Virus record (IMG/VR): IMGVR_UViG_3300009868_000001 | Location: 45,067-109,066 of that record | Reading direction: 5' to 3' (one strand) | From: a virus | Taxonomy: Duplodnaviria > Caudoviricetes | DNA: 64,000 nucleotides | Shown here: positions 2,517 through 64,000 of the stretch, in pieces | Position numbering within the stretch: position 1 is the stretch's first letter | Layout of the letters: every line of letters begins with the position of its first letter | The notes under the pieces: generated by a model | Seen by the model: only the letters and a program-made list of their open reading frames with translations | Databases searched by the model: none | Told to the model about the DNA's origin: nothing | Made by a program: the position numbers and the translations under genes

Positions 2517-2783
2517 ATGTTAGGACTCACGATCCTGCAGAATGCAAGTTTTACATTAGTTGGGAGAGCCAGAAACAGTGATTCACTCTTATTTCATGCG
2601 TTAGCTGCAATTCTTTCAAATGGAATCTGGCTTCTAGTCATACGTAAGGTTGTAAGTAACTTTGACCAGCCGGTTTTAATGATAACTTACTTAATCGGTT
2701 CTGTTTCAGGTTCAGTTTCAATGCACTACATATCTATGAATTACATAGAAAAGAAATTTAAAGCAAAACAACAATCATCATGA
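2517..2783 (+). CDS. Small membrane protein
   Basis: 88 aa with 2-3 hydrophobic segments. Confidence 0.6.
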   Translation: MLGLTILQNASFTLVGRARNSDSLLFHALAAILSNGIWLLVIRKVVSNFDQPVLMITYLIGSVSGSVSMHYISMNYIEKKFKAKQQSS

Positions 2784-28497: not shown

Positions 28498-31368
28498 CTA
28501 TTGGCGGTTGACGTGAATTCTGAAGGATGCATGTCTTGTGTCAGACCAGCTTAATCCTGAATCGGGGGAAATGAACTTTTTAAAGTCCTGATATGATATG
28601 TTTTCAGGTATGTATACTATAGAATTATTGTTCTTTAATCTTGTCCCAATACCTATCATTCCCTTAAACCCATCGACTTTAGCATAATACTTAAAGTTTG
28701 CATAAAGGACTGAATTAATTAACTCTTTAGAATCTTCATCGACCAACACGCTTGAATCAAAAGCATCAATTGTCTTTTCAAATATTAAATCGGTCGTTTC
28801 TGGAACATGAAAAAGGTGGTTAGAAAACATATCTGCAAACCAAGTTGCAAACTCGTCTAAAGACACTCCCTGTTTTTCTAGCATTTCCTTGACTGTCATC
28901 CAGTTCTTCATGTTTTCAAGATTGATATTAAGACCGTTTTCTCCAATGCTTAATATGAATGTTTGAACACTCTCATTAATGTTATGTTTCTTTATTAAGT
29001 CTAACACACGTGAAAGAAGGACTTCCTTTCCAGAAACAAACGAGTTTTCTCCGTTTTTTCTACTTGATGACAGTCTACCCTTGTCTTTTTTTACTTCAAT
29101 TGAAGATTCATTTATCATTATGTCTCCGACCTTAGCCTTTAGTCCTCCTTTAAAAAGAAGAGCAATTGCTTCTCCTAGACCCTTCCCTATACCTGGTTCT
29201 TGATAATGAACTATTGTGTCTATTATTTCCTCATTTAGACCAGATTGGTTTAAATCAATAACATTTGGTTTTTCAAGGTCTATTGAAAGGCCTTCGTTTT
29301 CAAATAAAAAGGTCTTAAATTTTTCGACCTCTTCTTCAGGTAGATTTAATCTACTTATTGCTTTTGCTAAATCATGTGCAGCTTTTGCTGAATACCCACG
29401 TTCAATAATAGATTCCTTTATTTGAGTAAGTGTCTTATTGAGATTAAAGGTTACGAGGTTTCTTGTAAAATTTTCAAGAAGCTGATCGACTGCTTCTGTC
29501 TTTTCTTGACCCTTTAAACCTGAAAGAAAGTTTATAGTCGAATCTATTTTAGCTTCATCGTATTTTGTAGACTCAGAAAGAACTTCTGACTGAAACTTAG
29601 GAGCGATTGCAACGAAACCGGAATAGACAGCCCTAGGGACAAGCTTTTTAAATGAAGAGTAATCGTTTGCTTTTAAAGCAGATCTTACCTCCTCAGTGAT
29701 AGTTGAAACTGGCGCTTCTAGGAGTTGAAATTCTTTTCGTATGTTATAGTTTAATGCTTTTCTTCTTGCATGTTCTAACTGTAATGCATAGTCCCTCAAT
29801 CTGTTTGTTGTTGTTGCAAGAAACAGAGGGTCATAATCAGGTCTAATTGCTTTAAGTATCTCAGAGATTATTCCCTTATTGATGACTCGGCAGTCACATA
29901 TGATTTCCTTATATTCCTTGACAACTTTGTTAAGTATGTCTTGGACCTCTTTTGCTGGGATTGGGTTCTTTGAATTTGGCTTGTCTGGAGCAATTGCAAT
30001 TAATACTACAGGATGTCCGTTCTTTTTCTTAAGAGTCATTGCAGTCTCTATGTGCCCATTATGTAATGGTTGGAAATCAGAGACCAAGAGGTTTACTTTT
30101 TCTGATTTTTTCTTGCCTTCTCTTATGTCAAACTGAGAAAAATAGTTAGCATCACTGACTCCACCTATAAATTCATTGAAGGTTGGAAAATAACCTTCAA
30201 ATATTGATTCTTTAGAAATGACCCGTTGGATCTTATCAATCTGAGAGTTTAGGTGTTGTACCATACTTTCACTAAAGAAGTTTGAATTGACCTTGTCTTT
30301 TTTCTTTCTAAAGACATTTAAGGCTATTCGATAGACCTCTTTGAATGTTTCATTTTGATTGATAAACTTAATGACCTGTGGGTCCTTAATGAGGTCGTAG
30401 TTCACATTAAACTCGTCCTTCTTCAGGTATTCAGGAATACTGATGTTTATCTCTCTATATTTATTGCCATATTTATTGATGAACCTCTTATAAATTTCAT
30501 TTAACAATGAAACGTATTTCTGGTCATAATTCTCTCCCTTTAACTCTATTGATGTTAATTCAGGATACGAATAGCTCTCAATGAAATTCATTATGTCGGA
30601 AACAGTCAACCATACATAATCATCAGACTTCTTTCCCTTTGTCTGAGGCCTACTAAAGCTTTCAGAGTTAAAGCTTGGATCTACTAGTTTAGTTACATAG
30701 AAAGTAGAAGGTTCAGTTCCAACCGATTCGTAAAACCTAAAAACGACCGAATCGAAGTCCTTGTCACCCGACTCATATATTGCCATTTTATCTGGGCTAA
30801 GAGTCTTTACGATATGTTTTGAGAAAGACAATGATTTATATTTGTCGGTCAGTTCTGAGAACGGAGTAAAAACAAATTCAAGTATTCCCTGTTTCTGCTC
30901 TTCGCTTAAGTTTCCTTGAAAAAGAATGGGAGGTTCCGCCACCTCAAGGGCTTTTGCCCAATCTGTCAATATTTTTCTGTCATGAACCATTCTAACAGAT
31001 TTTCCGGTTTCGTTTAACCTGTTGATATAGCTAAGAGAAAGTATGTTGTTTAATGGTCTGTCTTTTCCTGGAAAATATTCGAATCCGACTACAATATTGT
31101 CTGGGAGGTTAATTCCCTTTTCAGACAATGCAGCTATCCGTGCATCCATATGTATTATTGCAGGTTCGTAAAACTTGCTCAACACACGGTGCATGTATGT
31201 TATTGGTTCGTCTTTCTTGTAATACTCAATCTTACCCTTTTCCTTTTTTAATGAAAAAGCTGAACCATCGAGTTTCTCGCTGACTATCACATACTTGGAA
31301 AGAAGGTCCTTAATGAACTCTTCACCCTTCCTTTCATATATTTCACGTAAATGAGTGATTCCGGCCAT
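28498..31368 (-). CDS. Multidomain protein: ligase-like adenylation domain + HxGH nucleotidyltransferase + PD-(D/E)xK nuclease-like domain
   Basis: SEKLDGS; FQPLHNGH; GE...GD...IEVK. Confidence 0.65.
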   Translation of the reverse strand: MAGITHLREIYERKGEEFIKDLLSKYVIVSEKLDGSAFSLKKEKGKIEYYKKDEPITYMHRVLSKFYEPAIIHMDARIAALSEKGINLPDNIVVGFEYFPGKDRPLNNILSLSYINRLNETGKSVRMVHDRKILTDWAKALEVAEPPILFQGNLSEEQKQGILEFVFTPFSELTDKYKSLSFSKHIVKTLSPDKMAIYESGDKDFDSVVFRFYESVGTEPSTFYVTKLVDPSFNSESFSRPQTKGKKSDDYVWLTVSDIMNFIESYSYPELTSIELKGENYDQKYVSLLNEIYKRFINKYGNKYREINISIPEYLKKDEFNVNYDLIKDPQVIKFINQNETFKEVYRIALNVFRKKKDKVNSNFFSESMVQHLNSQIDKIQRVISKESIFEGYFPTFNEFIGGVSDANYFSQFDIREGKKKSEKVNLLVSDFQPLHNGHIETAMTLKKKNGHPVVLIAIAPDKPNSKNPIPAKEVQDILNKVVKEYKEIICDCRVINKGIISEILKAIRPDYDPLFLATTTNRLRDYALQLEHARRKALNYNIRKEFQLLEAPVSTITEEVRSALKANDYSSFKKLVPRAVYSGFVAIAPKFQSEVLSESTKYDEAKIDSTINFLSGLKGQEKTEAVDQLLENFTRNLVTFNLNKTLTQIKESIIERGYSAKAAHDLAKAISRLNLPEEEVEKFKTFLFENEGLSIDLEKPNVIDLNQSGLNEEIIDTIVHYQEPGIGKGLGEAIALLFKGGLKAKVGDIMINESSIEVKKDKGRLSSSRKNGENSFVSGKEVLLSRVLDLIKKHNINESVQTFILSIGENGLNINLENMKNWMTVKEMLEKQGVSLDEFATWFADMFSNHLFHVPETTDLIFEKTIDAFDSSVLVDEDSKELINSVLYANFKYYAKVDGFKGMIGIGTRLKNNNSIVYIPENISYQDFKKFISPDSGLSWSDTRHASFRIHVNRQ

Positions 31369-50585: not shown

Positions 50586-52124
50586 TTATGAAAAGTCTTT
50601 TTCTAACACCGGGTCGATTTTAGAACCTGGTTTAATCTTTGCCCTTTCACGTATTTCTTCAAATCGATAGTCTTCAATCAACTCTCCCATTTCAAAGACT
50701 GTCACAAGCTCATCAAGAGCGGTGTCAAAGTCAGGGTCATGGTTTGTTATTGTCTTGTAGACATCACGTTCCTCCTGATTATCTGTTCGTACCAACTTAA
50801 GGTTACCACTCTTACTTCTCTTAAACGATACGACACGATTGCCCTGGTCATCAAACTCTATCGGAGACTTAGAGACCTCGACCATCGTCAATACTCCCTT
50901 AACTTCTTGATAAAGAGCACAGCACTTAAATGCAAACTTTTGAGTGTCTCGGTCGATTTTTTGAAGAAGTGCTCCACCCATACCGAAAACGAGGTTTTCA
51001 GGGGATATCTTTTCTTCCATCATCATTTTCTTAATCTCAAGGATTGAGAAGTAATTGATACCATCACCTTGTAACAAACGGACATTTTCCTTTAATACTT
51101 TAAACCCTTTACCATTCACATGTCCACCTGCACGGTCCCATAAAACATCAAAGATGACTTTTATCGTTACCTTAGCCGACCCTGAGTCAAGTCGTATGAC
51201 AACTTTACCGTCTCGGTTTAAAACAAGTGGTTTTAACTCCTTGCCCATCCATATGTTTTGGACTGCATTTAATACGTCATATGAGTCAGAAACACATGCA
51301 AATGTTCCTTCAGGATATATTTGAAGCATATTTCTATAAGCTTCAATTTCATTTTCTTTGCCCCAACTTGTTATTGTTGAGTGTTCTGACGCACTCACTG
51401 AGAAGCCCAACATTTCACGTGTGTTATACCATTTCTGGGCAAGACGGATTGCCATTCCGTTATCTGTTCCTCTGAAGTTTAAGAGGTGGGCCGAACCGCC
51501 CCAAGCAGCAGATTGTGGCGAGCTTGCTCCACGGATACCGAAATCATGCAACATAAATTCTATGATTGACAGGATCTCTTCATCTGAGTAGGTTGTAGTC
51601 TCTTTGAACCACTCAAAGAAAACTTTCTTAATTTCCCTGGATAAGGTTCCTACTGTTATTGGGTACCACACCTCAACTATGAGGGTTTCTAAAAAGTTGG
51701 TCAGCCATGGAAGCTCATCATCTAAGCTTTCAATAAGGACGAGCACATTCCTTGTGCCAACTAATGTTCCTTCAGGGACAGCTTTAATCCTTACGGGTAG
51801 TCTACCTCCATGGACGTTTACGATTCGTTCCCATGCAGCACGCGGAAACACCTTTTTCCCGAAGTGTGCGTTCCAGAACTGCTCCGCATCGTCAATTTTT
51901 TCCATGGTGACTACCTGGCCGACTAAGTATTTCTTTATCAGATAATTTAGGCCGTAAACCAGTGTGGTGTTGAATAGACCTCCACGTGATTCCAAATAAG
52001 ATATAATCTTCTTTGTTCCCTTAGGGTATTGGCCTGGGTGAGTTAGTTTATATGAGTCCGACATGATAAGTAAGTTCTCATCATAGTCGAATATAGGACC
52101 GAAGTTAAATTGCGTTTTCGACAT
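50586..52124 (-). CDS. nadV: Nicotinamide phosphoribosyltransferase (Nampt)
   Basis: DSYK..H..QYP, LHDFG.RG, SEHS, VSDSYD, RLDSG, QGDG and FGMGG motifs. Confidence 0.93.
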   Translation of the reverse strand: MSKTQFNFGPIFDYDENLLIMSDSYKLTHPGQYPKGTKKIISYLESRGGLFNTTLVYGLNYLIKKYLVGQVVTMEKIDDAEQFWNAHFGKKVFPRAAWERIVNVHGGRLPVRIKAVPEGTLVGTRNVLVLIESLDDELPWLTNFLETLIVEVWYPITVGTLSREIKKVFFEWFKETTTYSDEEILSIIEFMLHDFGIRGASSPQSAAWGGSAHLLNFRGTDNGMAIRLAQKWYNTREMLGFSVSASEHSTITSWGKENEIEAYRNMLQIYPEGTFACVSDSYDVLNAVQNIWMGKELKPLVLNRDGKVVIRLDSGSAKVTIKVIFDVLWDRAGGHVNGKGFKVLKENVRLLQGDGINYFSILEIKKMMMEEKISPENLVFGMGGALLQKIDRDTQKFAFKCCALYQEVKGVLTMVEVSKSPIEFDDQGNRVVSFKRSKSGNLKLVRTDNQEERDVYKTITNHDPDFDTALDELVTVFEMGELIEDYRFEEIRERAKIKPGSKIDPVLEKDFS

Positions 52125-52143
52125 TTTCCTCTTTGTTTTTTCT

Positions 52144-52431
52144 TTAGAATAATTTACTAAAATCTATTGAATCCAACCACTTATTAAATCGTCCAATCGA
52201 ATTTTTATATAGCCAGACGATACTCATGATTATTCCAGCGATGATCATCACTATTGCTACTGGATAATTAAACCACACAATTACAGGAGGATCATTATCT
52301 TCAAATATAAAAAGAAGAGTCACGAATCCTAGGATTCCGTTAACCGTCGCTTCGGCTTCCCAGCAGAATATTAAAAGGATAAGCTGTGTCAGGAGTCCTA
52401 GACCTGTCCAAAATTTAGCTGAATTGCTCAT
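52144..52431 (-). CDS. Small membrane protein
   Basis: 95 aa with 3 hydrophobic segments. Confidence 0.6.
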   Translation of the reverse strand: MSNSAKFWTGLGLLTQLILLIFCWEAEATVNGILGFVTLLFIFEDNDPPVIVWFNYPVAIVMIIAGIIMSIVWLYKNSIGRFNKWLDSIDFSKLF

Positions 52432-53395
52432 TCTCTTTCTTTATTATGACCTTATTAAGTAGTGCTTCCATCAACGGATGGTGCTCTTCTACTAAGAAGG
52501 AGTTCATCCAGTATTGTATGATTTTCTTATCGGCTCCTTTTGCTTTCTCTCCAATGATTTCGCTTATTGGGAACCATCTAATCTCTGATATATCATCAGA
52601 CGGTTCAAGCGTACCAAAGGAATACGTCGTGTAAAATAGAGCCGTCATTATTTTATCAGACTCTGCCTTATACCTCCAATCGTTTACTAAAAACGAACCA
52701 ACATAGTTGGCGTTTCCGGTCTCAATATGACCTGCTTCTTCTTTAAGTTCCCTAAGAGCAGCGTATTCTAAGCTTGAGTCTTTAGGGTCTATAAACCCAC
52801 CAATAAAACGATATTTAGACTCATTAGGTTTCTTACCTAAGAGAATCTTTTGCATCTCAGGAGTGTCGAAAAGAGCAATATCAACCGTCATATAGAGACA
52901 GTCATACCTATTGTATATTTGATAGATTGCACCGGCCCTGAAATCAGGAGAAGAAAGAACCTCACATTTTATGTTTTTACGAATTTCAGTTCCAGACACG
53001 TAAACTTCCTGCTTTAATTCTTCACACTTAAACTGTCCTTTATAGTGAGAAATAAAAGAATCACGACCGCCATACAACAACACCTTACCTGTCGGATAGA
53101 CTTCACGTATTCGAGAATCAAGTTGTTGACTCCACACTTCATCTATTCGTCTGTCCTGTAAAGGCATAACAGTTACATGAGGATAAAGTTCTTTTATCAT
53201 CAGTTCGCGCTCTTTGTAACCTAATGGGTTTCGTTTAGAACGAGGTATCTGCGCATTGTCTCCAATAAAGATGATTACCTTTTTATGGTTTTTACAAACC
53301 TCATCAATGAGGTTTCTGTGGGCTTCGTGAAGTTCATGGACTTGAAATCGTCCTATTATGACTCCTATGTCGTATTCTGAAGATAAATCTGACAT
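52415..53395 (-). CDS. nadM: Bifunctional NMN adenylyltransferase / Nudix (ADP-ribose) hydrolase
   Basis: GRFQ..H..H, RNP, SGTEIR; Nudix box GGF.....LE.AA.REL.EE. Confidence 0.9.
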   Translation of the reverse strand: MSDLSSEYDIGVIIGRFQVHELHEAHRNLIDEVCKNHKKVIIFIGDNAQIPRSKRNPLGYKERELMIKELYPHVTVMPLQDRRIDEVWSQQLDSRIREVYPTGKVLLYGGRDSFISHYKGQFKCEELKQEVYVSGTEIRKNIKCEVLSSPDFRAGAIYQIYNRYDCLYMTVDIALFDTPEMQKILLGKKPNESKYRFIGGFIDPKDSSLEYAALRELKEEAGHIETGNANYVGSFLVNDWRYKAESDKIMTALFYTTYSFGTLEPSDDISEIRWFPISEIIGEKAKGADKKIIQYWMNSFLVEEHHPLMEALLNKVIIKKENEQFS

Positions 53396-54596: not shown

Positions 54597-55955
54597 TTAT
54601 TTTATAACAGTTACACTGCCTTTTCTCATTTCATCCATGTATGTATCAAGGTATGTCACTTTAAAAATGTAGACATATACGCCAGGCAGAGTTCCTTCAC
54701 CATCAAACCTACCGTCCCATTTAAAGTCGGGGTCATTTGATTGGAAGAGTAAGATACCATCTCTGTTAAACACTTGGACGCTCATCTTTTTCCAGTTGAG
54801 CTTGTTACCATATGCTTCAAAGTAATCGTTGTTGCCATCTCCATTAGGCGAAAATGCATTAGGAATGAACACGTCTCGGTTATGAGTGTTTACAATGTGT
54901 TCAGAACCGCTTACTGAACAACCATTGAAATCGGTGACAGTAAACTCATAGTCTCCTTCCTTTAAACCGAAAATTGAGTCCGATGTACTTCCGGTCGACC
55001 AGAAATATGAATACGGTGGAGTTGCTCCAGACGCAAAAACATTAATTTGACCTGCATCACATGTTTTACATGAAGAATAACTTATAAGACGGTTTGCTTC
55101 AAGTTTTGAAGGTTCACCTATGTCCACTGATGTTGTAACACTACACCCAGTAGAATCAGTCACGGTCACATTGTAAGTTCCTGCTACAACTTTAATCGTC
55201 TGTTCAGTTTCCCCAGTGTTCCACTTATATGTGAATGGAGAGAATTTACCAGAAGACTGACATGTTATAAACCCGTCGTCTAATCCATTACATGTAGGCT
55301 CACTTATAACACCTGGTGTAAGGTTTACGTTAAACTGTGCTGGCCTAACGTCACGTATGTTATCTAACATTATGTAAGGGTTGGTCGGCGGCCAGTTCCA
55401 ATTTCCCAAGTTATAACAAAGAAAGGTCACCCATGTTATCTGTTGGTTGGGAATAAAGGACACATTTAGGGTCATCCATGTATCAAAGGGATATAAATCA
55501 TTAGACGACCATAACAGTGTATCTAAATCATAGAGAGAGTCTCCTCCATATATTAAAAGTTGAGCATGGTCCGGTATGGTACCTCCTTCGTGTGTGCTTG
55601 AATTGGCAGCATCTATTTTAAACGAGTATTTGATACCTGGTTCGAAAGGAAAGTTTATCTTTTGAGTGACTCCTTCCTGCCAACCGTATTGTGATTGGTG
55701 ACATAGGCCTAAAAACCAGTTGCCATCTGTTGGCTGCATATTAAGTCCAAAGAATCCAGGCTGCATGTCGGGAGTTTGGTTTGGTCCAACTTGAGTCCAT
55801 TCAGGCGGCGGTATGCCTGGCCAAAAAAACCTCCAACCTTCAAATGAAGGATTGTTAAAATAGGTTACACATGTGTTAGGTTGTTGTGGCTTTACTGTTA
55901 AAAACAGTGCAATCAACAGTGCAATTAGACTTATCTTTATCTTAAAAAAGTTCAT
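54597..55955 (-). CDS. Secreted SprB-repeat protein with T9SS type-B (gliding-motility-associated) C-terminal domain
   Basis: Signal peptide from MNFFKIK, two SprB-like repeats (C.G..DG.I...Y.W..G...Y.VTVTD..GC), and IPNAFSPNGDG.ND.F...FNR.G...WDG...GVY.Y. Confidence 0.85.
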   Translation of the reverse strand: MNFFKIKISLIALLIALFLTVKPQQPNTCVTYFNNPSFEGWRFFWPGIPPPEWTQVGPNQTPDMQPGFFGLNMQPTDGNWFLGLCHQSQYGWQEGVTQKINFPFEPGIKYSFKIDAANSSTHEGGTIPDHAQLLIYGGDSLYDLDTLLWSSNDLYPFDTWMTLNVSFIPNQQITWVTFLCYNLGNWNWPPTNPYIMLDNIRDVRPAQFNVNLTPGVISEPTCNGLDDGFITCQSSGKFSPFTYKWNTGETEQTIKVVAGTYNVTVTDSTGCSVTTSVDIGEPSKLEANRLISYSSCKTCDAGQINVFASGATPPYSYFWSTGSTSDSIFGLKEGDYEFTVTDFNGCSVSGSEHIVNTHNRDVFIPNAFSPNGDGNNDYFEAYGNKLNWKKMSVQVFNRDGILLFQSNDPDFKWDGRFDGEGTLPGVYVYIFKVTYLDTYMDEMRKGSVTVIK

Positions 55956-56022
55956 TTCGAGTGTATTTCTAATAAAAAATACCAAAACAGCTGTGTTAAT
56001 ATTATTTAAGTGTGTTAAAAAC

Positions 56023-56053
56023 AAAAAAGGAAGACACTTTCATGCCTTCCTTT
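56023..56053 (-). terminator. Intrinsic terminator after vWA gene
   Basis: AAAGGAAG/CTTCCTTT hairpin with an A-run. Confidence 0.7.
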
Positions 56054-56075: not shown

Positions 56076-58031
56076 TTACTTTATCACCGAATATCTTGGG
56101 TCATCATAGATAGCCCAAAGTTCGGTCTCAGGGTCAATAGAACCTGTTTTTATGTTTCGAAGGACTTGAGAGATTGTTCCTTCGTTAAATCCGCTCACTA
56201 GGAGTACGTTTGAAACCTTATCCATTTCCTTGGTTATGGTGTATGGTAGGTCCTTAATACCCCAGAAGATTACCAGTGGGTTCCAACCCATCCTCGAAGC
56301 TTTCATTAAAGTCAGCTTAGGGTGTGTTCCGGTGTTATGTTCACCGTCTGTTATGAATAACAGGGCAGATGGTAGGTCTTCAAGGTTGCATTTACCCTTG
56401 TTGACAAGGTCCATGAAGTATTCAAGGGCAGACGATATGTTTGTCGATGATACTTCCTGAGGGTCAGCAGCCTTTATTGCTGCCAGGTTTTCCGTAAAGG
56501 TCTTACCTGGAGAAAGAACTGCGTATTCTGGGACCTGACGTTGAAACGCTCTTCTTTGGACGTATGGGTTTGGCCTTTCGTCCACATACTTGGAGTTACC
56601 GCAGACGTGGAAGTTGCTTGAGAACCAGCCAAAGGTGTTTCTAAACTCGTCAACTGGGTTTCTTGTGCTTAGAGCGATTGCAAGAGTATATGCAACCAAC
56701 CTTCTGCTCAGGTAGTTTCCGTTGACGTTTATGTCGTTTGCGTCCATCGATCCAGAACCGTCGATTACTGGGAAGACGTTTGCAATAAGGTCCATCTTTT
56801 CGATAAGGGCCTGGTAAGTGGTATTAATCTGAGAGTCAGAATATCTACCACCAAGCAGTTGAACAATTAAGTCTACTGTCTGCATACCGGTTGCCTTAAC
56901 TTTAAGTTGAGTCATCAGTTCCTTTTTCTTCTGTGGGTCTTCTACTCCATGAACGGCAAGCTCCCTTAGGGAGTCAGCGACTTTTTCTTGTCCCTTTTCC
57001 CATTGAATATACCATTCACCAAGTTTTTCCCACTTAGGCCTTGCGTTAAGCTTACCCTTCTCGTCCTTGAAAGCAAGCATCCTTGCTACACGGAACCTTT
57101 GACCAGCTGTCAGCTTGTCAAGAAACTCATCAAAGTCTGACTTTGCCATTCCTAAGACATTCTTGCTTGAGAACTTCTGTTCTGCTGAGTCTTGCTTTTT
57201 ACGGAAGTCTCGGTACTGATCAGTTGTCCAACCCATAACCTCACAGAAATTCCTTATCCAGGCATTGACAAACACTTGTTTCTTAAGTGTTGCTCCCTTC
57301 TTTTGACGTGAGTATGTAACTATATCACCGACCTTAACCTTTATGGTAGGACCCTCAACTCTCTCACCGTTTACCTTAATCCATTCACGACCGTCAATTT
57401 TTACCTTAAACTCGGTCTTATCTTTCTTGGCCTTAACTACGAGCTTGCTTACACGGTTCTTACCTGTCTGATATTTAGGTAAGTGTCTTGCTATCAGGCG
57501 TAGGTCTCGTCCTGCTCTGATTTGAGATGCAAGAAACTCATGAACAACCTCAGGCATTGGAAACAGTGTCTCTTCTGAGATGACATTACCCTTTTTCCTG
57601 TCAGTAGTTATCTGGTAGAACATAAGGTTCTCATACAAAGTAAACTCTGCAATAAGCTTAATGTTTCTCTTAAACGATTCAGGCATCTTCTTTTCCCACC
57701 ATCTTAGGATGGAACGGAATATTGAACGTTCTTGTGCACCGCCTGTCTGAGACTTGATACCAAGTTCCTTGAGCACGTTGTGTTGACGAGAAACGTCACC
57801 AATATGAATGAAGATACGCTCAAGTAGTAGCTCAAACCCTTCCTTCTTTACTTCTGCATATGCCTTGTCCAGGTGTGCATGAATTAAAGAATCAGATTTA
57901 CCTTTAGCTGTCCTTAAGAACTGCAGGGTCTCCAATGTTTGTGGGAAACGTGGCTTGTCACTTGATGTGTTGCTTCCTATTTGAAGCTTTCTTGGTCTCT
58001 TAGTTGAGACGGTTGATGCTGTCTGTGTCAT
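56076..58031 (-). CDS. DUF2828/TROVE-like helical domain + vWA domain protein (Ro60-related architecture)
   Basis: GGAQERSIFRSILRW and LIARHLPK resemble DUF2828 motifs; vWA MIDAS DGSGSM, ST and ITDG. Confidence 0.7.
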   Translation of the reverse strand: MTQTASTVSTKRPRKLQIGSNTSSDKPRFPQTLETLQFLRTAKGKSDSLIHAHLDKAYAEVKKEGFELLLERIFIHIGDVSRQHNVLKELGIKSQTGGAQERSIFRSILRWWEKKMPESFKRNIKLIAEFTLYENLMFYQITTDRKKGNVISEETLFPMPEVVHEFLASQIRAGRDLRLIARHLPKYQTGKNRVSKLVVKAKKDKTEFKVKIDGREWIKVNGERVEGPTIKVKVGDIVTYSRQKKGATLKKQVFVNAWIRNFCEVMGWTTDQYRDFRKKQDSAEQKFSSKNVLGMAKSDFDEFLDKLTAGQRFRVARMLAFKDEKGKLNARPKWEKLGEWYIQWEKGQEKVADSLRELAVHGVEDPQKKKELMTQLKVKATGMQTVDLIVQLLGGRYSDSQINTTYQALIEKMDLIANVFPVIDGSGSMDANDINVNGNYLSRRLVAYTLAIALSTRNPVDEFRNTFGWFSSNFHVCGNSKYVDERPNPYVQRRAFQRQVPEYAVLSPGKTFTENLAAIKAADPQEVSSTNISSALEYFMDLVNKGKCNLEDLPSALLFITDGEHNTGTHPKLTLMKASRMGWNPLVIFWGIKDLPYTITKEMDKVSNVLLVSGFNEGTISQVLRNIKTGSIDPETELWAIYDDPRYSVIK

Positions 58032-58048
58032 ATTAATTAAAAAATTTA

Positions 58049-58106
58049 AGACCGACTAATTTCATTTTTTCCACAAAAACTGAGTTTTGATTTTCTAAGT
58101 CGGTCT
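58049..58106 (-). ncRNA. Leader stem-loop with CU-UAGAA/AUU-AG junction motif (element A)
   Basis: 9-bp stem AGACCGACU/AGUCGGUCU ending 17 nt upstream of the vWA gene start. Confidence 0.65.
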
Positions 58107-58167
58107 GTTAAAAATATCGAACGAAAGAGCCCCTTGTTGTTCAAGGAATATTAAGCTCAGTCATTCT

Positions 58168-58247
58168 TGGTGCCCGAGGCCGGATTTGAGCCAGCCATAC
58201 CTTCGCTTATAAGGCGACGATTTACTTCATTTTCTTCTATCTCAGGC
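58168..58247 (-). tRNA. Atypical tRNA-Ile(UAU)-like
   Basis: Acceptor GCCUGAG/CUCGGGC-A-CCA and anticodon loop CUUAUAA. T-loop is CUCAAAU and the D-arm pairs poorly. Confidence 0.6.
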
Positions 58248-58251
58248 ATAG

Positions 58252-58360
58252 AGAGGGACCATAAGGTATCTAAGGTACTGTTCGCGTCTTCACTTAGATT
58301 TTCGGTGGACGGTATTGCTCCTTCCGTTTACTCCTCTTTGTTAGGTGACAAAGACCCTCT
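58252..58360 (-). ncRNA. Putative multibranch structured RNA
   Basis: Closing stem AGAGGG/CCCUCU with three internal hairpins. Confidence 0.4.
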
Positions 58361-58445
58361 TGAAAAACCAACTTTTTGTTTAGGCTTAATAGGGCAAGCC
58401 CAGTAGAAAAAGTCATAAAAATATCTAAAATCCCGGCATAAGTTT

Positions 58446-58561
58446 ATCCTTCTAATGATGTTTGAAACGACTGGGATCGAACCAGCAACGGATTGTTTGG
58501 ATTACAATTGGCCTACCTATTGGCCAACATTTCACATTGTTTTACGTATTCTAAGAAGGAT
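58446..58561 (-). ncRNA. Y-RNA-like RNA: tRNA module enclosed in an outer stem (element B)
   Basis: Outer stem AUCCUUCU/AGAAGGAU around an inner cloverleaf with D-arm GGCC/GGCC and T-arm GCUGG-UUCGAUC-CCAGU; no free CCA end. Confidence 0.75.
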
Positions 58562-58571
58562 TTAAGCTCTT

Positions 58572-59054
58572 TTATTCTTCGCCTACCAGGTCCTCACCAA
58601 ATTTGGTTTGGAACTCAGACAGCTTAGAAGTAGCGTCCTTAATCTTGTCCTCAGTCGACTTGTTTTGGTCGATGAATTTCTTAAGGTCACGTGCTTCTTT
58701 CTGTGCCTTCTTGTATTCAGCAGTTTCTTTTTGGTAAACGTATGCTGCACGCAAGAACAGGTATATGTCGAAGAAGGTTACCTTCACTTTCTTACCACGA
58801 CCGGTAGTATGAGTGAATGCAACTGAAGTGTCTCCTAAAATAGGGTCATCGCATGAGGTGTTTATCTTCACAGCAACTTCCAACATCTTATTACGCAGTT
58901 GGTTTATGCTGTAAAGTTCAGGGTCAGTCAATTCGCCCCATTTTGCTTCAACTCCTGAGGCCAGTTTATTCATCTGAACTCCGAGGTTGTTTTCAGTGAA
59001 CTTCAGCTTAGCTGCGTTCATTTGTTCTTCTGTGATGTTCTTGAAATCTGTCAT
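58572..59054 (-). CDS. Hypothetical helical protein
   Basis: 160-aa ORF at the head of the ncRNA/vWA unit. Confidence 0.65.
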   Translation of the reverse strand: MTDFKNITEEQMNAAKLKFTENNLGVQMNKLASGVEAKWGELTDPELYSINQLRNKMLEVAVKINTSCDDPILGDTSVAFTHTTGRGKKVKVTFFDIYLFLRAAYVYQKETAEYKKAQKEARDLKKFIDQNKSTEDKIKDATSKLSEFQTKFGEDLVGEE

Positions 59055-59690: not shown

Positions 59691-60395
59691 TTACAATTTT
59701 TGTAATTTACCACTATCAAACCATATTGGAATTTTCTGAGTTAATTCACAATATGCCTTAAGTGCTCTTTTCTTCTCTTCAACTGTTAAAAAATAAAACG
59801 GACGAGTTTCCTTTAATGTTGAGTTTTTACTTATCGTAGACTTACATTCAAGAATAATAATTCCGCCATCTTCTTTTTCAATCAAGAAATCAGGATTAAA
59901 GTAGTGATTCTTATTATTATATTGATACTTAATAGAAAAATCACAGCGTCTAATATCCTTAATTTTATATTCTTTTATTATTGCAACTATTCCTAATCTT
60001 TCAATATTTGAATCACATCTCACTTTAATGTTTTTAAATTCAAATATCGATTTCTTATTACCAAAAGAAAAACCAGCTTTACCTTCTCCGTTTCGTAAAC
60101 TTATAATTTTACCAAAAGATTCTCGTTTATCTTCAGTCCAAAATATTTTTCTGGCACATTTACGAGAACATGTTTTCTGTTTTCTTTTATTCCAATGTAC
60201 AGTAAATGGTTTTTCACAATTATTGCATATTAAAGTAACATCTGGATTTCCTTTACCGATCATTCGACCGGAGATACTTTTATTAATCTCCTTTCTCTTA
60301 GCTTTTGTGCTAAATCCTCTAGCACACTTTAAAGAACAAAATCTTCCACTACCGTAACTTCCATCATGTTCACATTCACAATTTTGACAAATCAT
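59691..60395 (-). CDS. Putative homing endonuclease (zinc fingers + PD-(D/E)xK/TnsA-like domain)
   Basis: CxxC clusters, S..E, PDF and LECK motifs; directly downstream of tRNA-Val. Confidence 0.7.
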   Translation of the reverse strand: MICQNCECEHDGSYGSGRFCSLKCARGFSTKAKRKEINKSISGRMIGKGNPDVTLICNNCEKPFTVHWNKRKQKTCSRKCARKIFWTEDKRESFGKIISLRNGEGKAGFSFGNKKSIFEFKNIKVRCDSNIERLGIVAIIKEYKIKDIRRCDFSIKYQYNNKNHYFNPDFLIEKEDGGIIILECKSTISKNSTLKETRPFYFLTVEEKKRALKAYCELTQKIPIWFDSGKLQKL

Positions 60396-61715: not shown

Positions 61716-62333
61716 TCATTTTCTTCCTTTTACCCAGCCTTCCGGAATTAGTTGGCTTTGTTTTATCTTTTGATTTTTAAATCCATTAGTTATCCACATT
61801 GTTCCAAATTGAGAGTTTTTATTTCCGATTTTTAATTTGGCTTTTTCACTCATTTTCATTTTAGCTTCAAAGCTGTGTGTCTTACCTTTCCAATTTGGAA
61901 TTTCTATAACACCGTCTTTATGTAGGTTTATAAAACGTCTTCTTTGTCTTTGTCGATTCTCTTCACTACTTCCTGAAATTTTTCCGCCTAATGTATGAAA
62001 ACTTAAAAGTTTTTCAGCGTCGTCTAATATTGACTTAGGAATTCCTCCCTGCCCGCCGTGTGTTAAATTCATACATAGCTGATCTTTCAAAAGATCATCA
62101 TTCACTAACTCCGCTTCACGTTTTGCTAACTCTTCTCGTGAATCATATTGTTCTAAAATCTCCAGAACATGATTCTTTTTACCGTGTTTATATAAAGAAC
62201 GCCTCAACCTTAACCCTGAACCTAAATACCCATCGTCTAAGTTATCGGTTGAGTGCATCCCAACGTAAAACCTATTTGTTACTTTACAAGTCGTCTTGTA
62301 AATGTAATGATATTTATGTTCCTTTCTTGGCAT
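61716..62333 (-). CDS. GIY-YIG (Seg-like) homing endonuclease with NUMOD3 motif
   Basis: YIYKTT...FYVG.H, YLGSG, E and N catalytic pattern; GKTHS.E.K.KMS. Confidence 0.85.
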   Translation of the reverse strand: MPRKEHKYHYIYKTTCKVTNRFYVGMHSTDNLDDGYLGSGLRLRRSLYKHGKKNHVLEILEQYDSREELAKREAELVNDDLLKDQLCMNLTHGGQGGIPKSILDDAEKLLSFHTLGGKISGSSEENRQRQRRRFINLHKDGVIEIPNWKGKTHSFEAKMKMSEKAKLKIGNKNSQFGTMWITNGFKNQKIKQSQLIPEGWVKGRK

Positions 62334-62997: not shown

Positions 62998-63006
62998 GTC
63001 TTTATG

Positions 63007-63089
63007 TATCGCATGCGGGGCTCGAACCCGCCCACATCTTTCGAATACGGCTTGAAAGGCCGTTGCCCTACCTACTAGGCGAATGCGAC
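63007..63089 (-). tRNA. tRNA-Glu(UUC) with 15-nt variable region
   Basis: Acceptor GUCGCAU/AUGCGAU-A, loop CUUUCAA, variable region AUUCGAAAGAUGUGG. Confidence 0.82.
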
Positions 63090-63700
63090 ATTTTTCTTCC
63101 TTTTTTCCATCCTTTTGGAATTAAGGAGTCTTTCTTTATTTTCTTATTTTCAGATTCATTAGTTATCCACATTGTTCCAAATTGAGAGTTTAATATTCCT
63201 GTTTTTAACTCACTTAATTTAATTTTAGTTTCCTGTGAATGAGTCTTTCCATACATTGGATTATTTTCTCCCTTTTGAATTCCTCTTTCAATAGAAGTCT
63301 TAGATATTTGCTGTTTAGTTTCCTGTGAATGCTTCTTTCCTAAAAATCTTTTATGAATACTGTTCCATTTTTTATTTTTAGAAGCGTTTGCATCTTTATT
63401 ATATGCAGTCCATCCATTACCTCCTCCTAACGCTAAATTCATACAAAGAGGATCTCTCAAAATTTCTTCAGTTACTAACTGAATTTCTCCTTTTGTTAAA
63501 TCTTCCCGACTCTCAAAGAACTCTAAAATCTCAATCTTATGATTTTCCCTTCCATATTTATAAAGAGATCGTCTTAAGACTATTCCTGAACCTAAATAGC
63601 CATCATCCAACTTACGGGTCGAATGCATGCCTAAGTAATATCTCCCGTTTATCAAACACGTTGTTTTATACGTGAAATGATATTGTTTGACATTTGACAT
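63068..63700 (-). CDS. GIY-YIG (Seg-like) homing endonuclease with NUMOD3 motifs
   Basis: FTYKTT...YYLG.H, YLGSG and two GK.HSQETK repeats. Paralogue of 61716-62333; its last codons overlap tRNA-Glu. Confidence 0.85.
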   Translation of the reverse strand: MSNVKQYHFTYKTTCLINGRYYLGMHSTRKLDDGYLGSGIVLRRSLYKYGRENHKIEILEFFESREDLTKGEIQLVTEEILRDPLCMNLALGGGNGWTAYNKDANASKNKKWNSIHKRFLGKKHSQETKQQISKTSIERGIQKGENNPMYGKTHSQETKIKLSELKTGILNSQFGTMWITNESENKKIKKDSLIPKGWKKGRKMSHSPSR

Positions 63701-63746
63701 CTAAGTGAAACTTTAAGATATTTATCTAGAGTTTAGCACTTAGATG
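63698..63746 (-). promoter_or_regulatory. Start-sequestering hairpin with late promoter at its apex
   Basis: CAUCUAAGUG/CACUUAGAUG 10-bp stem containing the AUG; ATAAATA at 63719-63725. Confidence 0.78.
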
Positions 63747-63784
63747 CACTTCGCGGGGAAGCACTTAGATGCACTTCGCGGGGA
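63735..63784. repeat. 25-nt perfect tandem duplication
   Basis: AGCACTTAGATGCACTTCGCGGGGA twice, spanning the tRNA 3' end and the hairpin 5' arm. Confidence 0.9.
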
Positions 63785-63895
63785 AGGCTGGATTTGAACC
63801 AACTACTATTGCGTGACAGGCAATCGTTTTAACCTATGGTTAAATGTTTCTAAGAGAAGTCACAACATCTCTAATGTTTTGTAAACTTCTTCCCC
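63779..63895 (-). tRNA. 117-nt tRNA-Asp(GUC)-like RNA with large D-loop insertion (element C)
   Basis: Acceptor GGGGAAG/CUUCCCC-G, D-stem GUUU/AAAC, loop CUGUCAC and T-arm are intact; the D-loop is about 50 nt. Confidence 0.75.
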
Positions 63896-63901
63896 TTTTA
63901 G

Positions 63902-63986
63902 TAGGAACTGGCTGAATCGAACAACCGACCTCCTCGTAGTTACTCGAGGCGCTCTAATAGCTAGCATACCACTGAGCTAAGTTCCT
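63902..63986 (-). tRNA. tRNA-like RNA (Val-like acceptor) with 8-nt anticodon loop and enlarged D-loop
   Basis: AGGAACU/AGUUCCU-A, GCUC/GAGC, CCUCG-AGUAACUA-CGAGG, canonical T-arm. Confidence 0.7.
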
Positions 63987-64000
63987 GTTAGACTTGTCCT

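What the first reader, a model, noticed from the sequence alone, without database searches (positions are those of the whole stretch)
58446..58561. tRNA cloverleaf locked inside an outer stem (unchargeable tRNA mimic)
Seen: acceptor-like UGAAAUG/CGUUUCA, D-arm with GG, a 5-bp anticodon stem with loop AAUCCAA (no U33), and a canonical UUCGAUC T-loop. Both ends continue into an 8-bp outer helix. The elbow is preserved while decoding and aminoacylation features are lost, as in YrlA-class Y RNAs.
Basis: partly seen in the sequence, partly recalled or inferred. Interest (0 to 1): 0.8.

Follow-up and report, generated by a model that had tools for sequence, protein, structure and literature searches.

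The report
Phage tRNA mimic beside Ro60-like gene
A tRNA-shaped RNA closed by an outer stem lies just upstream of a distant relative of the Ro60 RNA-binding ring protein in an uncultured jumbo phage, and the same stem-plus-junction "handle" recurs with different cargos in related phages, which points to a new Y-RNA-like system rather than a normal tRNA gene.

Summary
On the minus strand, 58534-58462 is a full cloverleaf (Rfam tRNA 44.3 bits) with A33 in place of U33. An 8-bp helix (58561-58554 / 58453-58446) encloses it, but 19-nt and 8-nt linkers separate that helix from the acceptor stem.

The Y-RNA-like reading gains strong support from context.
- In relatives of that gene, a helix ending in CU/AG and flanked by UAGAA and (A)UU recurs directly upstream, on the gene strand only. 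I found 48 distinct modules with 29 different but complementary arms, at 1.1/kb against 0.05/kb elsewhere.
- The cargos vary: normal cloverleaves, acceptor-less bodies, YrlA-like permuted tRNA bodies and small hairpins.
- In close relatives the handle is 94-100% identical, while the anticodon loop changes 7 of 7 bases.

It is not a YrlA member: the Rfam models give no hit, and the topology and motif differ.

Expression and protein binding are untested. Another note from this scan on the same window (e1-5767035) flagged the shared junction. Confidence 0.6.

The parts
58554..58561 (-). 5' arm of the closing helix ('handle'), 8 nt, ending in CU
   Evidence: Perfect complement of 58446-58453. Invariant in L082/L083; one A-to-G change in L084 gives a G.U pair.
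58546..58553 (-). 5' junction motif UAGAAUAC, directly after the arm
   Evidence: CU|UAGAA is shared by all 48 distinct modules of related loci. It is 100% conserved in L082-L084.
58535..58545 (-). Variable A-rich 5' linker between junction and cloverleaf
   Evidence: 27-55% identity to relatives.
58462..58534 (-). tRNA-shaped cargo: acceptor, D arm with GG, anticodon arm, canonical T arm, discriminator A, no encoded CCA
   Evidence: ARAGORN. Rfam tRNA 44.3 bits. Compensatory changes in the acceptor and D stems in L082/L084.
58497..58503 (-). Anticodon-like loop AAUCCAA with A33 (58502)
   Evidence: The loop is UUCUGGU in L084 (0/7 identical). Homologous bodies with the same anticodon stem carry six further different loops.
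58454..58461 (-). 3' linker ending in AUU (58456-58454), the 3' half of the junction
   Evidence: U occupies the position before the 3' arm in 44 of 48 modules, a feature the search did not impose.
58446..58453 (-). 3' arm of the closing helix, starting with AG
   Evidence: The 14 nt at 58456-58443 are invariant in L082-L084.
58049..58106 (-). Second handle module (58 nt, 9-bp arms, same junction) in the leader of the Ro60-like gene, ending 18 nt before its start codon
   Evidence: Conserved in L082-L084. These two are the only modules with the full signature in the 109-kb contig.
58168..58248 (-). Degenerate tRNA-like RNA between the two modules: 8-bp terminal stem followed by AUAGAA, a hairpin with a 7-nt loop, a T arm and an encoded CCA
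   Evidence: RNAalifold on window/L082/L084 with compensatory pairs in the terminal stem and T stem.
56076..58031 (-). 651-aa Ro60-fold protein (HEAT-repeat ring plus vWA/MIDAS); DUF2828/DUF7788 superfamily; presumed protein partner
63779..63895 (-). tRNA-Asp-like RNA carrying the same junction in closed (hairpin) form between the acceptor and D arms
   Evidence: Equivalent closed-handle tRNA-like RNAs occur in L002, L004-L006, L085, L092 and L112.

Best explanation
The element is a roughly 116-nt non-coding RNA module made of two parts. The first is a 'handle': an 8-bp helix that pairs the two ends and closes on a conserved asymmetric junction, CU|UAGAAU on the 5' strand and AUU|AG on the 3' strand. 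The second is a tRNA-shaped cargo with an intact cloverleaf and an anticodon loop unsuited to decoding (A33). It belongs to a family of handle-bearing RNAs encoded directly upstream of, and on the same strand as, a divergent Ro60-fold ring protein (DUF2828/DUF7788) inside the tRNA arrays of uncultured jumbo phages. Shown here: the fold elements; covariation and strand specificity of the handle; its tight co-location with the gene; conservation of the handle above that of the cargo; and the Ro60-like predicted fold. Inferred by analogy with Ro60 and Y RNAs: the protein binds the handle. In Y RNAs the 5'/3' stem and a (C)GAA-containing 5' strand form the Ro60 site, and a second module engages another factor. 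On this reading the tRNA-like cargo acts as a tether or decoy for a tRNA-recognising factor, such as a processing, modification or repair enzyme or a host anticodon nuclease. The second, cargo-less handle in the gene's own leader (58106-58049) would then let the protein feed back on its own translation.
For: (1) The cloverleaf and 8-bp helix are real.
(3) In loci of the gene's relatives, CTTAGAA occurs 119 times on the gene strand and 21 times on the opposite strand. A complementary arm of 7 bp or more lies within 135 nt for 46% of the gene-strand sites, against 4.5% with shuffled downstream sequence; for 8 bp or more the figures are 33% against 1.5%. The opposite strand is at background.
(4) There are 48 distinct modules with 29 different 7-nt arms, giving 397 Watson-Crick and 11 G.U pairs. 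Positions -3 and -4 of the arm covary perfectly with their partners. U precedes the 3' arm in 44 of 48 modules.
(5) Module density is 1.11/kb in the 1.5 kb upstream of the gene and 0.05/kb elsewhere. 19 of 29 loci with enough upstream sequence have at least one module. In the 109-kb contig only the two modules next to the gene carry the full signature.
(6) Compared with the 72%-identical relative L084, the handle is 94-100% identical, the cloverleaf 59% and the anticodon loop 0/7. L084 has also lost the canonical T-loop and D-loop, and ARAGORN no longer calls it a tRNA.
(7) Homologous cargos sharing the same anticodon-stem sequence carry seven different loops. Some lack any acceptor pairing, and other modules hold a T arm, closed acceptor stem and D arm in the permuted order known from YrlA.
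(8) The same junction occurs in closed, permuted connectivity inside tRNA-like RNAs. This fits a structural protein-binding motif better than a linear processing signal.
(9) Published Y RNAs lie within 4 kb of Ro60 on the same strand. They have a 5'/3' stem with a GNCGAA or CGAA motif near the 5' end and often a tRNA-like domain (PMC4201824; PMC12135203).
Against: The protein matches neither Pfam TROVE nor any solved structure by sequence, so 'Ro60-like' rests on a predicted fold plus remote homology to DUF2828, a family of unknown function. The RNA matches no Rfam Y RNA or YrlA model. The window's cargo is a complete cloverleaf that RNase P/Z could in principle release. Two modules in relatives (L003 2017-2137, L097 1458-1566) contain plausible tRNAs with U33. 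The shorter DUF2828 genes of other phages show no enrichment of open handles. Co-location with the gene might instead reflect co-location with tRNA arrays, in which the gene is always embedded.
Confidence: 0.6

Rival explanations
1. It is a working, if unusual, phage tRNA-Gly(UCC). The outer helix is only leader-trailer pairing of the precursor, serving stability, folding insulation or ordered processing within a polycistronic tRNA transcript. RNase P and a 3' nuclease release a 73-nt tRNA, and the host enzyme adds CCA.
For: The cloverleaf is complete, with all elbow nucleotides and an A15:U48 pair, and scores 44.3 bits on Rfam tRNA, close to the weakest accepted neighbour at 45.7 bits. It lies at the edge of a tRNA array. 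C35 and C36 are present. Modules in L003 and L097 contain tRNA-like bodies with U33. Modules are spaced from neighbouring tRNAs like array units, with gaps of 1-5 nt.
Against: A33 replaces the near-universal U33, whereas all six regular tRNAs of the array keep U33. The element has U1-A72 and A73; from established knowledge, not tested here, bacterial tRNA-Gly identity uses G1-C72, C2-G71 and U73. The orthologue in L084 has a completely different loop and degenerate T and D loops, yet an unchanged handle. Homologous modules have no acceptor stem. Ordinary tRNAs in the same arrays carry no handle. The partial contig contains no CCA-adding enzyme, though the host could supply one.
Confidence: 0.2
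2. The handle is a cis-acting processing or regulatory signal unrelated to the neighbouring protein. It could be the recognition site of an endonuclease or ligase that excises or circularises the enclosed unit, which would allow permuted tRNA-like units to mature through a circular intermediate. Alternatively it could be an operator or attenuator structure of the operon.
For: The junction is invariant while the arms vary, as expected of a cleavage or recognition site. Some cargos are circularly permuted tRNA bodies. Modules are packed between tRNAs and next to each other like excisable units. One module lies in the gene leader. GIY-YIG and HNH nuclease genes are interspersed in the array.
Against: The 109 kb in hand contain no RtcB, and the only RNA-ligase match is weak and below cut-off. 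The same junction occurs in closed hairpin form, where excision or circularisation makes no sense. In the permuted units the linkers are too long to restore an anticodon loop after ligation (inference). Handles track the 650-aa gene subfamily rather than tRNA arrays in general.
Confidence: 0.13
3. The outer helix is a chance inverted repeat around a decaying tRNA pseudogene.
For: The single-sequence fold is only moderately better than shuffles (z -2.08). An 8-bp match near a given tRNA has a prior chance of roughly 1% (my own estimate).
Against: Both arms and the junction are invariant across relatives whose linkers and cargo diverge. The same architecture recurs with 29 different arm sequences, far above shuffled controls and on one strand only.
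Confidence: 0.02

Closest known systems
YrlA (Rfam RF02553), the bacterial and mycobacteriophage Y RNA with a tRNA-like domain that partners Ro60/Rsr (Chen et al. 2014, PMC4201824)
   Same: Both are RNAs of about 100-130 nt encoded within a few hundred nt of a Ro60-fold gene on the same strand. In both the 5' and 3' ends pair into a stem, a short conserved motif ending in GAA lies near the 5' end, and a tRNA-like domain has canonical T and D arms. More than one such RNA occurs per locus, one without a tRNA-like domain (compare YrlB). Some sister modules (L100 1981-2103, L003 1590-1719, L107 99-219, L112 688-811) even show the YrlA order of T arm, closed acceptor stem and D arm.
   Different: The YrlA covariance model gives no match at E<=10. 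In the window's RNA the tRNA body has normal connectivity, and the closing stem lies beyond the acceptor end rather than at the anticodon-stem position. The motif is CUUAGAA(U), not GNCGAA(N)G. A full 5-bp/7-nt anticodon arm is present. The protein is DUF2828/DUF7788, not a Pfam TROVE member.
Thermus phage phiLo Ro60 with Yrl1/Yrl2 (PMC12135203; PDB 9KOP, 9L5Y)
   Different: phiLo Ro60 is recognisable as TROVE. Per the passages read, its Yrl RNAs are not described as tRNA-like, the motif differs, and a tRNA-array context and a family of interchangeable cargos are not mentioned.
Canonical tRNA (Rfam RF00005)
   Same: The element has a full cloverleaf, T-loop, G18G19 and an A15:U48 pair, scores above the gathering threshold, and lies in a phage tRNA array.
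   Different: It has A33. Its AU-rich acceptor starts with U1-A72. Its anticodon loop is not conserved among orthologues. It is enclosed by a conserved handle that ordinary tRNAs of the same arrays lack.
DUF2828 (PF11443) + DUF7788 (PF25043) proteins of phages and giant viruses
   Same: The window's protein aligns to such a protein at hhalign probability 98.9%, E 2e-17. The best BFVD structural matches carry these names.
   Different: The window's subfamily is about 180 residues longer, with a beta-rich insertion at about 186-245 that is absent from the short form. Individual members do not reach the Pfam thresholds. The papers I could search assign DUF2828 no function or RNA partner.

Membership tests
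YrlA (RF02553) | Scores on the Rfam YrlA covariance model (gathering 69 bits) | tested here: not met
   No match at E<=10 anywhere in the 109-kb contig. cmscan of 58300-58700 and 57980-58480 at E<=10 lists only tRNA.
YrlA (RF02553) | Encoded within about 4 kb of a Ro60 orthologue, on the same strand | tested here: met
   The module ends 415 nt upstream of the start of the Ro60-fold gene 56076-58031, on the same strand. Caveat: the protein is Ro60-like by predicted fold, not by the TROVE HMM.
YrlA (RF02553) | Permuted topology: the terminal stem occupies the tRNA anticodon-stem position, the acceptor stem is closed by a loop, and the order is V-T-AS-D | tested here: not met
   The window's RNA has the normal order acceptor-D-anticodon-V-T-acceptor, with the closing stem outside the acceptor. 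Sister modules in other phages do show the T-AS-D order.
YrlA (RF02553) | GNCGAAN0-1G motif near the 5' end (putative Rsr site) | tested here: not met
   The sequence after the 5' arm is UAGAAUAC; only the GAA is shared.
YrlA (RF02553) | Conserved tRNA-like T and D arms able to form the elbow | tested here: met
   The window has a canonical T-loop, G18G19 and A15:U48. These are lost in the L084 orthologue.
YrlA (RF02553) | Bound by Ro60; carries tRNA-type modifications; substrate of RNase P | not testable with these tools
   Needs RIP, EMSA and modification mapping.
tRNA (RF00005), functional decoder | Covariance-model score above gathering (29 bits) | tested here: met
   44.3 bits, E 2.3e-8.
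tRNA (RF00005), functional decoder | U33 and an anticodon conserved among orthologues | tested here: not met
   A33. The loop is 0/7 identical in L084, and seven different loops sit on homologous bodies.
tRNA (RF00005), functional decoder | Processed to about 76 nt with CCA and aminoacylated | not testable with these tools
   CCA is not encoded. No sequencing runs could be obtained.
Ro60 / TROVE protein | HEAT-repeat ring followed by a vWA domain with a MIDAS motif | tested here: met
Ro60 / TROVE protein | Match to Pfam TROVE (PF05731), or sequence similarity to solved Ro60 proteins | tested here: not met
   There is no TROVE hit at E<=10 for the protein or E<=0.1 for the contig. phmmer and a profile hmmsearch against PDB sequences find nothing at E<=10. 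One of 29 relatives touches vWA_Ro60 at E 0.0046.
DUF2828/DUF7788 | Homology to proteins that pass the Pfam thresholds for PF11443 and PF25043 | tested here: met
   hhalign of A1 against the L019 protein gives 98.9%, E 2.2e-17 over 384 columns. That protein scores 94 and 170 bits on the two families. The window's protein itself does not reach either threshold.

The most novel reading that the evidence does not exclude
Uncultured jumbo phages may carry a modular RNA system. One universal 'handle' (a helix closing on the CU|UAGAA / AUU|AG junction) would dock interchangeable tRNA-derived cargos onto a Ro60-like ring protein of the DUF2828 family. The cargos are full cloverleaves, acceptor-less bodies, circularly permuted bodies and bare anticodon-arm look-alikes with 7-nt loops. 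The rapidly changing anticodon-like loops would make the cargos a panel of decoys or sensors for host tRNA-targeting nucleases or other tRNA-binding factors. This would give DUF2828, also found in giant viruses and eukaryotes, its first function as an RNA-binding relative of Ro60.
Probability: 0.25. Interest if true: 0.85.

Novelty: new variant of a known kind. Interest (0 to 1): 0.72.

Why it matters
Ro60 and its Y RNAs are conserved from bacteria to humans, yet what the tRNA-like domain of bacterial Y RNAs does remains open. This locus offers a natural experiment. A protein family with a Ro60 fold, invisible to the TROVE model, sits next to many small RNAs that share one short junction but carry different tRNA-derived cargos, all inside phage tRNA arrays.

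If the protein binds the handle, four things follow:
- DUF2828/DUF7788 proteins, so far of unknown function, become RNA-binding Ro60 relatives.
- The recognition element is small enough (two closing pairs plus about eight nucleotides) to test by mutation.
- Ro60-type ribonucleoproteins become linked to phage tRNA biology, and possibly to the conflict over tRNA cleavage between phages and hosts.
- Some genes that tRNA finders call as phage 'tRNAs' would not be decoders.

Tried and rejected
- Rfam: the gathering scan of the window and E<=10 scans of 58300-58700, 57980-58480 and 63700-64000 give nothing but tRNA. The YrlA and Y_RNA models on the whole contig give nothing meaningful.
- Sequence-level identification of the protein failed with Pfam at E<=10, phmmer against PDB, and a 29-sequence profile against PDB. 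Only fold comparison and hhalign to a DUF2828 protein worked.
- Cultured phages: megablast of the locus and tblastn of the protein against 50,697 phage records found no match.
- A relaxed module search (any arm before UAGAA, partner within 330 nt) was too noisy: 191 observed against about 152 in shuffles. I replaced it with the stricter test.
- MAFFT alignments of whole modules (A4, A5) did not keep the 3' arms in register. I therefore did not use the count of structure pairs or build a covariance model, and computed the covariation statistics by script instead.
- An acceptor pairing between 58437-58431 and the CCA-proximal strand was considered for the middle region and rejected because of mismatches. 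RNAalifold instead supports the 8-bp stem 58248-58241 / 58178-58171.
- A k-turn reading of the junction was rejected, because the unbulged strand has no G-A. A hammerhead or hairpin-ribozyme reading was rejected for lack of the core motifs and of any Rfam hit.
- Open handles were sought upstream of the shorter DUF2828 genes (75 loci) and were not enriched: 4 on the gene strand against 6 on the other.
- No RtcB and no CCA-adding enzyme were found in the 109 kb, and only a sub-threshold RNA-ligase domain. The contig is about 41% complete, so their absence is not informative.

Full report
**What is at the coordinates**

The window is the 3' 64 kb of a 109-kb IMG/VR virus contig estimated at 41% complete. 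Its genes point to a large phage of Bacteroidota: a CHU_C/SprB type IX secretion cargo ORF, NAD-salvage genes, a ClpB-like ATPase and homing endonucleases.

The finding lies on the minus strand. ARAGORN calls tRNA-Gly(tcc) at 58534-58462. Rfam tRNA scores 44.3 bits in a local scan, although the whole-window gathering scan missed it. The cloverleaf is complete:
- a 7-bp acceptor stem starting with U1-A72;
- a D-loop with G18G19;
- a 5-bp anticodon stem;
- a canonical T-loop;
- discriminator A, with no encoded CCA.

The 7-nt loop at 58503-58497 has A at position 33. All six regular tRNAs of the adjacent array have U33 and are richer in G+C.

A perfect 8-bp helix pairs 58561-58554 with 58453-58446. 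It is separated from the acceptor stem by a 19-nt linker on the 5' side and an 8-nt linker on the 3' side.

**The neighbouring gene**

The next ORF on the same strand, 415 nt downstream (56076-58031, 651 aa), has no significant Pfam family. It gives only weak vWA hits and a match to phrog_850 'RNA-binding protein'. It has about 100 relatives at 34-84% identity, all unannotated and metagenomic.

By sequence the family joins DUF2828 + DUF7788. hhalign gives 98.9% (E 2e-17) to a phage protein that passes both Pfam thresholds, and the best BFVD matches carry those names, followed by phage TROVE/Ro-like proteins. The TROVE HMM itself and PDB sequence searches find nothing. The 50%-identity representative library holds 88 clusters at E<=1e-30 and 365 at E<=1e-10. 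No cultured phage record matches. The papers I could search assign DUF2828 no function.

**Conservation in close relatives**

Three contigs encode the protein at 84% identity (L082, L083) or 72% (L084). The whole 540-nt region upstream of the gene aligns between them and the window. Identity of the window to L082 and L084, segment by segment:

| Segment (window coordinates) | vs L082 | vs L084 |
|---|---|---|
| 5' arm plus UAGAAUAC (58561-58546) | 100% | 94% |
| AUU plus 3' arm plus AAA (58456-58443) | 100% | 100% |
| Cloverleaf (58534-58462) | 90% | 59% |
| 5' linker (58545-58535) | 27% | 55% |
| 3' linker (58461-58457) | 40% | 0% |
| Anticodon loop (58503-58497) | 7/7 | 0/7 |

The single change in the L084 arm turns an A-U pair into G.U. 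The acceptor and D stems show compensatory changes. L084 has a non-canonical T-loop and no GG in the D-loop, and ARAGORN no longer calls it a tRNA. Selection therefore acts most strongly on the closing helix and its junction, then on the stems. It does not act on the 'anticodon'.

**A recurring handle**

In more distant relatives of the gene (viral and metagenome contigs) the same architecture appears again and again upstream of the gene. It consists of a 5' arm ending in CU, then UAGAA, then an insert, then (A)UU, then a 3' arm starting with AG that is complementary to the 5' arm.
- **Strand bias:** CTTAGAA occurs 119 times on the gene strand and 21 times on the other strand.
- **Arm pairing:** on the gene strand, 46% of sites have a partner arm of 7 bp or more within 135 nt, against 4.5% when the downstream sequence is shuffled. 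For 8 bp or more the figures are 33% against 1.5%. The other strand is at background.
- **Arm diversity:** after removing duplicates there are 48 distinct modules with 29 different 7-nt arms, giving 397 Watson-Crick and 11 G.U pairs. The G.U pairs would be A.C mismatches on the other strand.
- **Covariation:** arm positions -3 and -4 covary exactly with their partners. U precedes the 3' arm in 44 of 48 modules, although the search did not require it.
- **Location:** module density is 1.11/kb in the 1.5 kb upstream of the gene and 0.05/kb in the rest of the loci. 19 of 29 loci with 500 nt or more of upstream sequence have at least one module.
- **Own contig:** only two modules carry the full signature, the finding itself and a 58-nt one (58106-58049) that ends 18 nt before the gene's start codon.
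- **Packing:** many modules abut tRNA genes by 1-5 nt, or each other by 7-16 nt, so they are packed like units of the tRNA array.

**What the handles enclose**

The cargos fall into classes:
- normal-topology cloverleaves (window, L082, and two with U33 in L003 and L097);
- bodies with D, anticodon and T arms but no acceptor pairing (L002, L085, L087, L088, L099);
- circularly permuted bodies in the order T arm, closed acceptor stem, D arm, with or without an anticodon arm (L100, L003, L107, L112), which is the order that defines YrlA;
- 58-75-nt modules holding a short hairpin plus a 5-bp stem with a 7-nt loop that resembles an anticodon arm;
- a few very small modules.

The window's cargo is homologous to the acceptor-less ones. 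They share the anticodon-stem sequence and the stretch after the junction, yet they carry seven different loops and three different, internally complementary, arm pairs.

The same junction also occurs in closed form: 3' half, hairpin, then 5' half. This form lies inside otherwise tRNA-like RNAs, including one in this window at 63779-63895.

Between the window's two modules lies a further degenerate tRNA-like RNA with an encoded CCA (58248-58168). Its terminal stem is followed by AUAGAA and shows compensatory changes in L084.

**Interpretation**

Known Y RNAs share several features (PMC4201824; PMC12135203):
- length of 80-130 nt;
- encoded within a few kb of Ro60, on the same strand;
- a stem that pairs the two ends;
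- a conserved GNCGAA or CGAA motif near the 5' end that is thought to contact Ro60;
- in the YrlA class, a tRNA-like domain.

The present module has every one of these features in altered form, next to a protein with the Ro60 fold. The most economical reading is therefore a Y-RNA-like partner RNA: the handle is the protein's docking site and the tRNA-shaped part is an exchangeable effector or decoy module.

Shown here are the structure elements, the covariation, the strand specificity, the co-location and the relative conservation. Inferred are expression as a discrete RNA, binding by the protein, and any downstream function. The handle in the gene's own leader suggests autoregulation by mimicry, which is also an inference.

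The fast turnover of the anticodon-like loops and the setting in a phage tRNA array make a role in the phage-host conflict over tRNAs attractive, but nothing here tests it. The 109 kb in hand encode no RtcB and no CCA-adding enzyme, and the contig is incomplete.

**Rivals**

- **A working tRNA-Gly with a paired leader and trailer.** This cannot be excluded without RNA data. It is disfavoured by A33, by the non-Gly acceptor and discriminator, by loss of the loop and elbow in L084 while the handle stays intact, and by the acceptor-less homologues.
- **A processing or circularisation signal unrelated to the protein.** This is possible. It fits poorly with the closed-hairpin form of the junction and with the restriction of open handles to the 650-aa gene subfamily: 75 loci of the shorter DUF2828 genes show none above background.
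- **Chance.** Excluded.

**Relation to known families**

The element works like a Y RNA of the YrlA kind but is not a member of that family. The Rfam YrlA and Y_RNA models do not match. In the window's copy the stem is attached at the acceptor end rather than at the anticodon-stem position. The motif differs. The protein is DUF2828/DUF7788, not TROVE.

I classify it as a new variant of a known kind. A separate first-stage note on this same window (e1-5767035) had already pointed out the shared junction in three RNAs and named the protein DUF2828-vWA. I reached the junction independently before reading that note, and then tested the DUF2828 assignment. The scan holds no note of this system on other DNA.

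Noticed in passing
window 58168-58248 (-): Degenerate tRNA-like RNA with an 8-bp terminal stem, AUAGAA after the stem, a hairpin with loop CUUAUAA, a T arm with loop CUCAAAU, and an encoded CCA. The terminal stem and T stem show compensatory changes in L084. A terminator-like hairpin follows at 58148-58130 (-).
   Followed up: partly
window 63779-63895 (-): tRNA-Asp(GUC)-like RNA with an insertion of about 45 nt between the acceptor and D arms. The insertion holds the same junction in closed hairpin form (AUU|AG-arm, loop, arm-CU|UAGAA). ARAGORN does not call it; Rfam tRNA scores only 25 bits on the 3' part. Equivalents occur upstream of the Ro60-like gene in L002, L004-L006, L085, L092 and L112.
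   Followed up: partly
window 63901-63986 (-) and 63006-63089 (-): ARAGORN reports a tRNA of undetermined identity with an irregular anticodon loop and a long extra arm, and an 84-nt tRNA-Glu(ttc) with a long variable arm beside a normal 74-nt copy. The array holds only Asp, Glu and Val species plus odd paralogues, and the contig ends inside it.
   Followed up: no
window 59691-60395, 61716-62333, 63068-63700 (-): HNH-like, GIY-YIG and GIY-YIG/NUMOD3 homing-endonuclease genes are interspersed between the tRNA genes.
   Followed up: no
window 58572-59054 (-): A 160-aa ORF ends 10 nt before the module. It is conserved in L082-L084, with only weak coiled-coil-type Pfam hits. A similar E/K-rich ORF end precedes the modules in L002.
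   Followed up: no
L018, L019, L037, L039, L041, L048 about 2640-2760 (+): Upstream of the shorter (about 465 aa) DUF2828+DUF7788 genes of another phage group lies a sigma-70-like TTGACA-N17-TATAAT promoter. In several loci it is followed at the leader start by (G/A)CUUAGAAA, then by a conserved stem-loop. The heptamer is the same as in the handle but has no long 5' arm. This may be coincidence or a shared recognition element.
   Followed up: partly
window 54597-56024 (-): A phage ORF carries SprB repeats and a CHU_C type IX secretion sorting domain, which points to a Bacteroidota host.
   Followed up: no
window 50586-53395 (-): An NAD-salvage pair: nicotinamide phosphoribosyltransferase (512 aa) and a cytidylyltransferase-like/NUDIX fusion (326 aa).
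   Followed up: no
window about 30889-31293 (-) (G000:C1:75955-76359): A sub-threshold RNA_ligase (PF09414) match (18 bits) lies inside a 957-aa open frame. It is the only RNA-repair-type signal found in the contig.
   Followed up: no
window 58462-58534: Technical point: the whole-window Rfam scan at gathering thresholds missed this 44-bit tRNA match, which appears only when a short region is scanned with laxer filters. Odd AU-rich tRNA-like genes in phages can be lost this way.
   Followed up: yes
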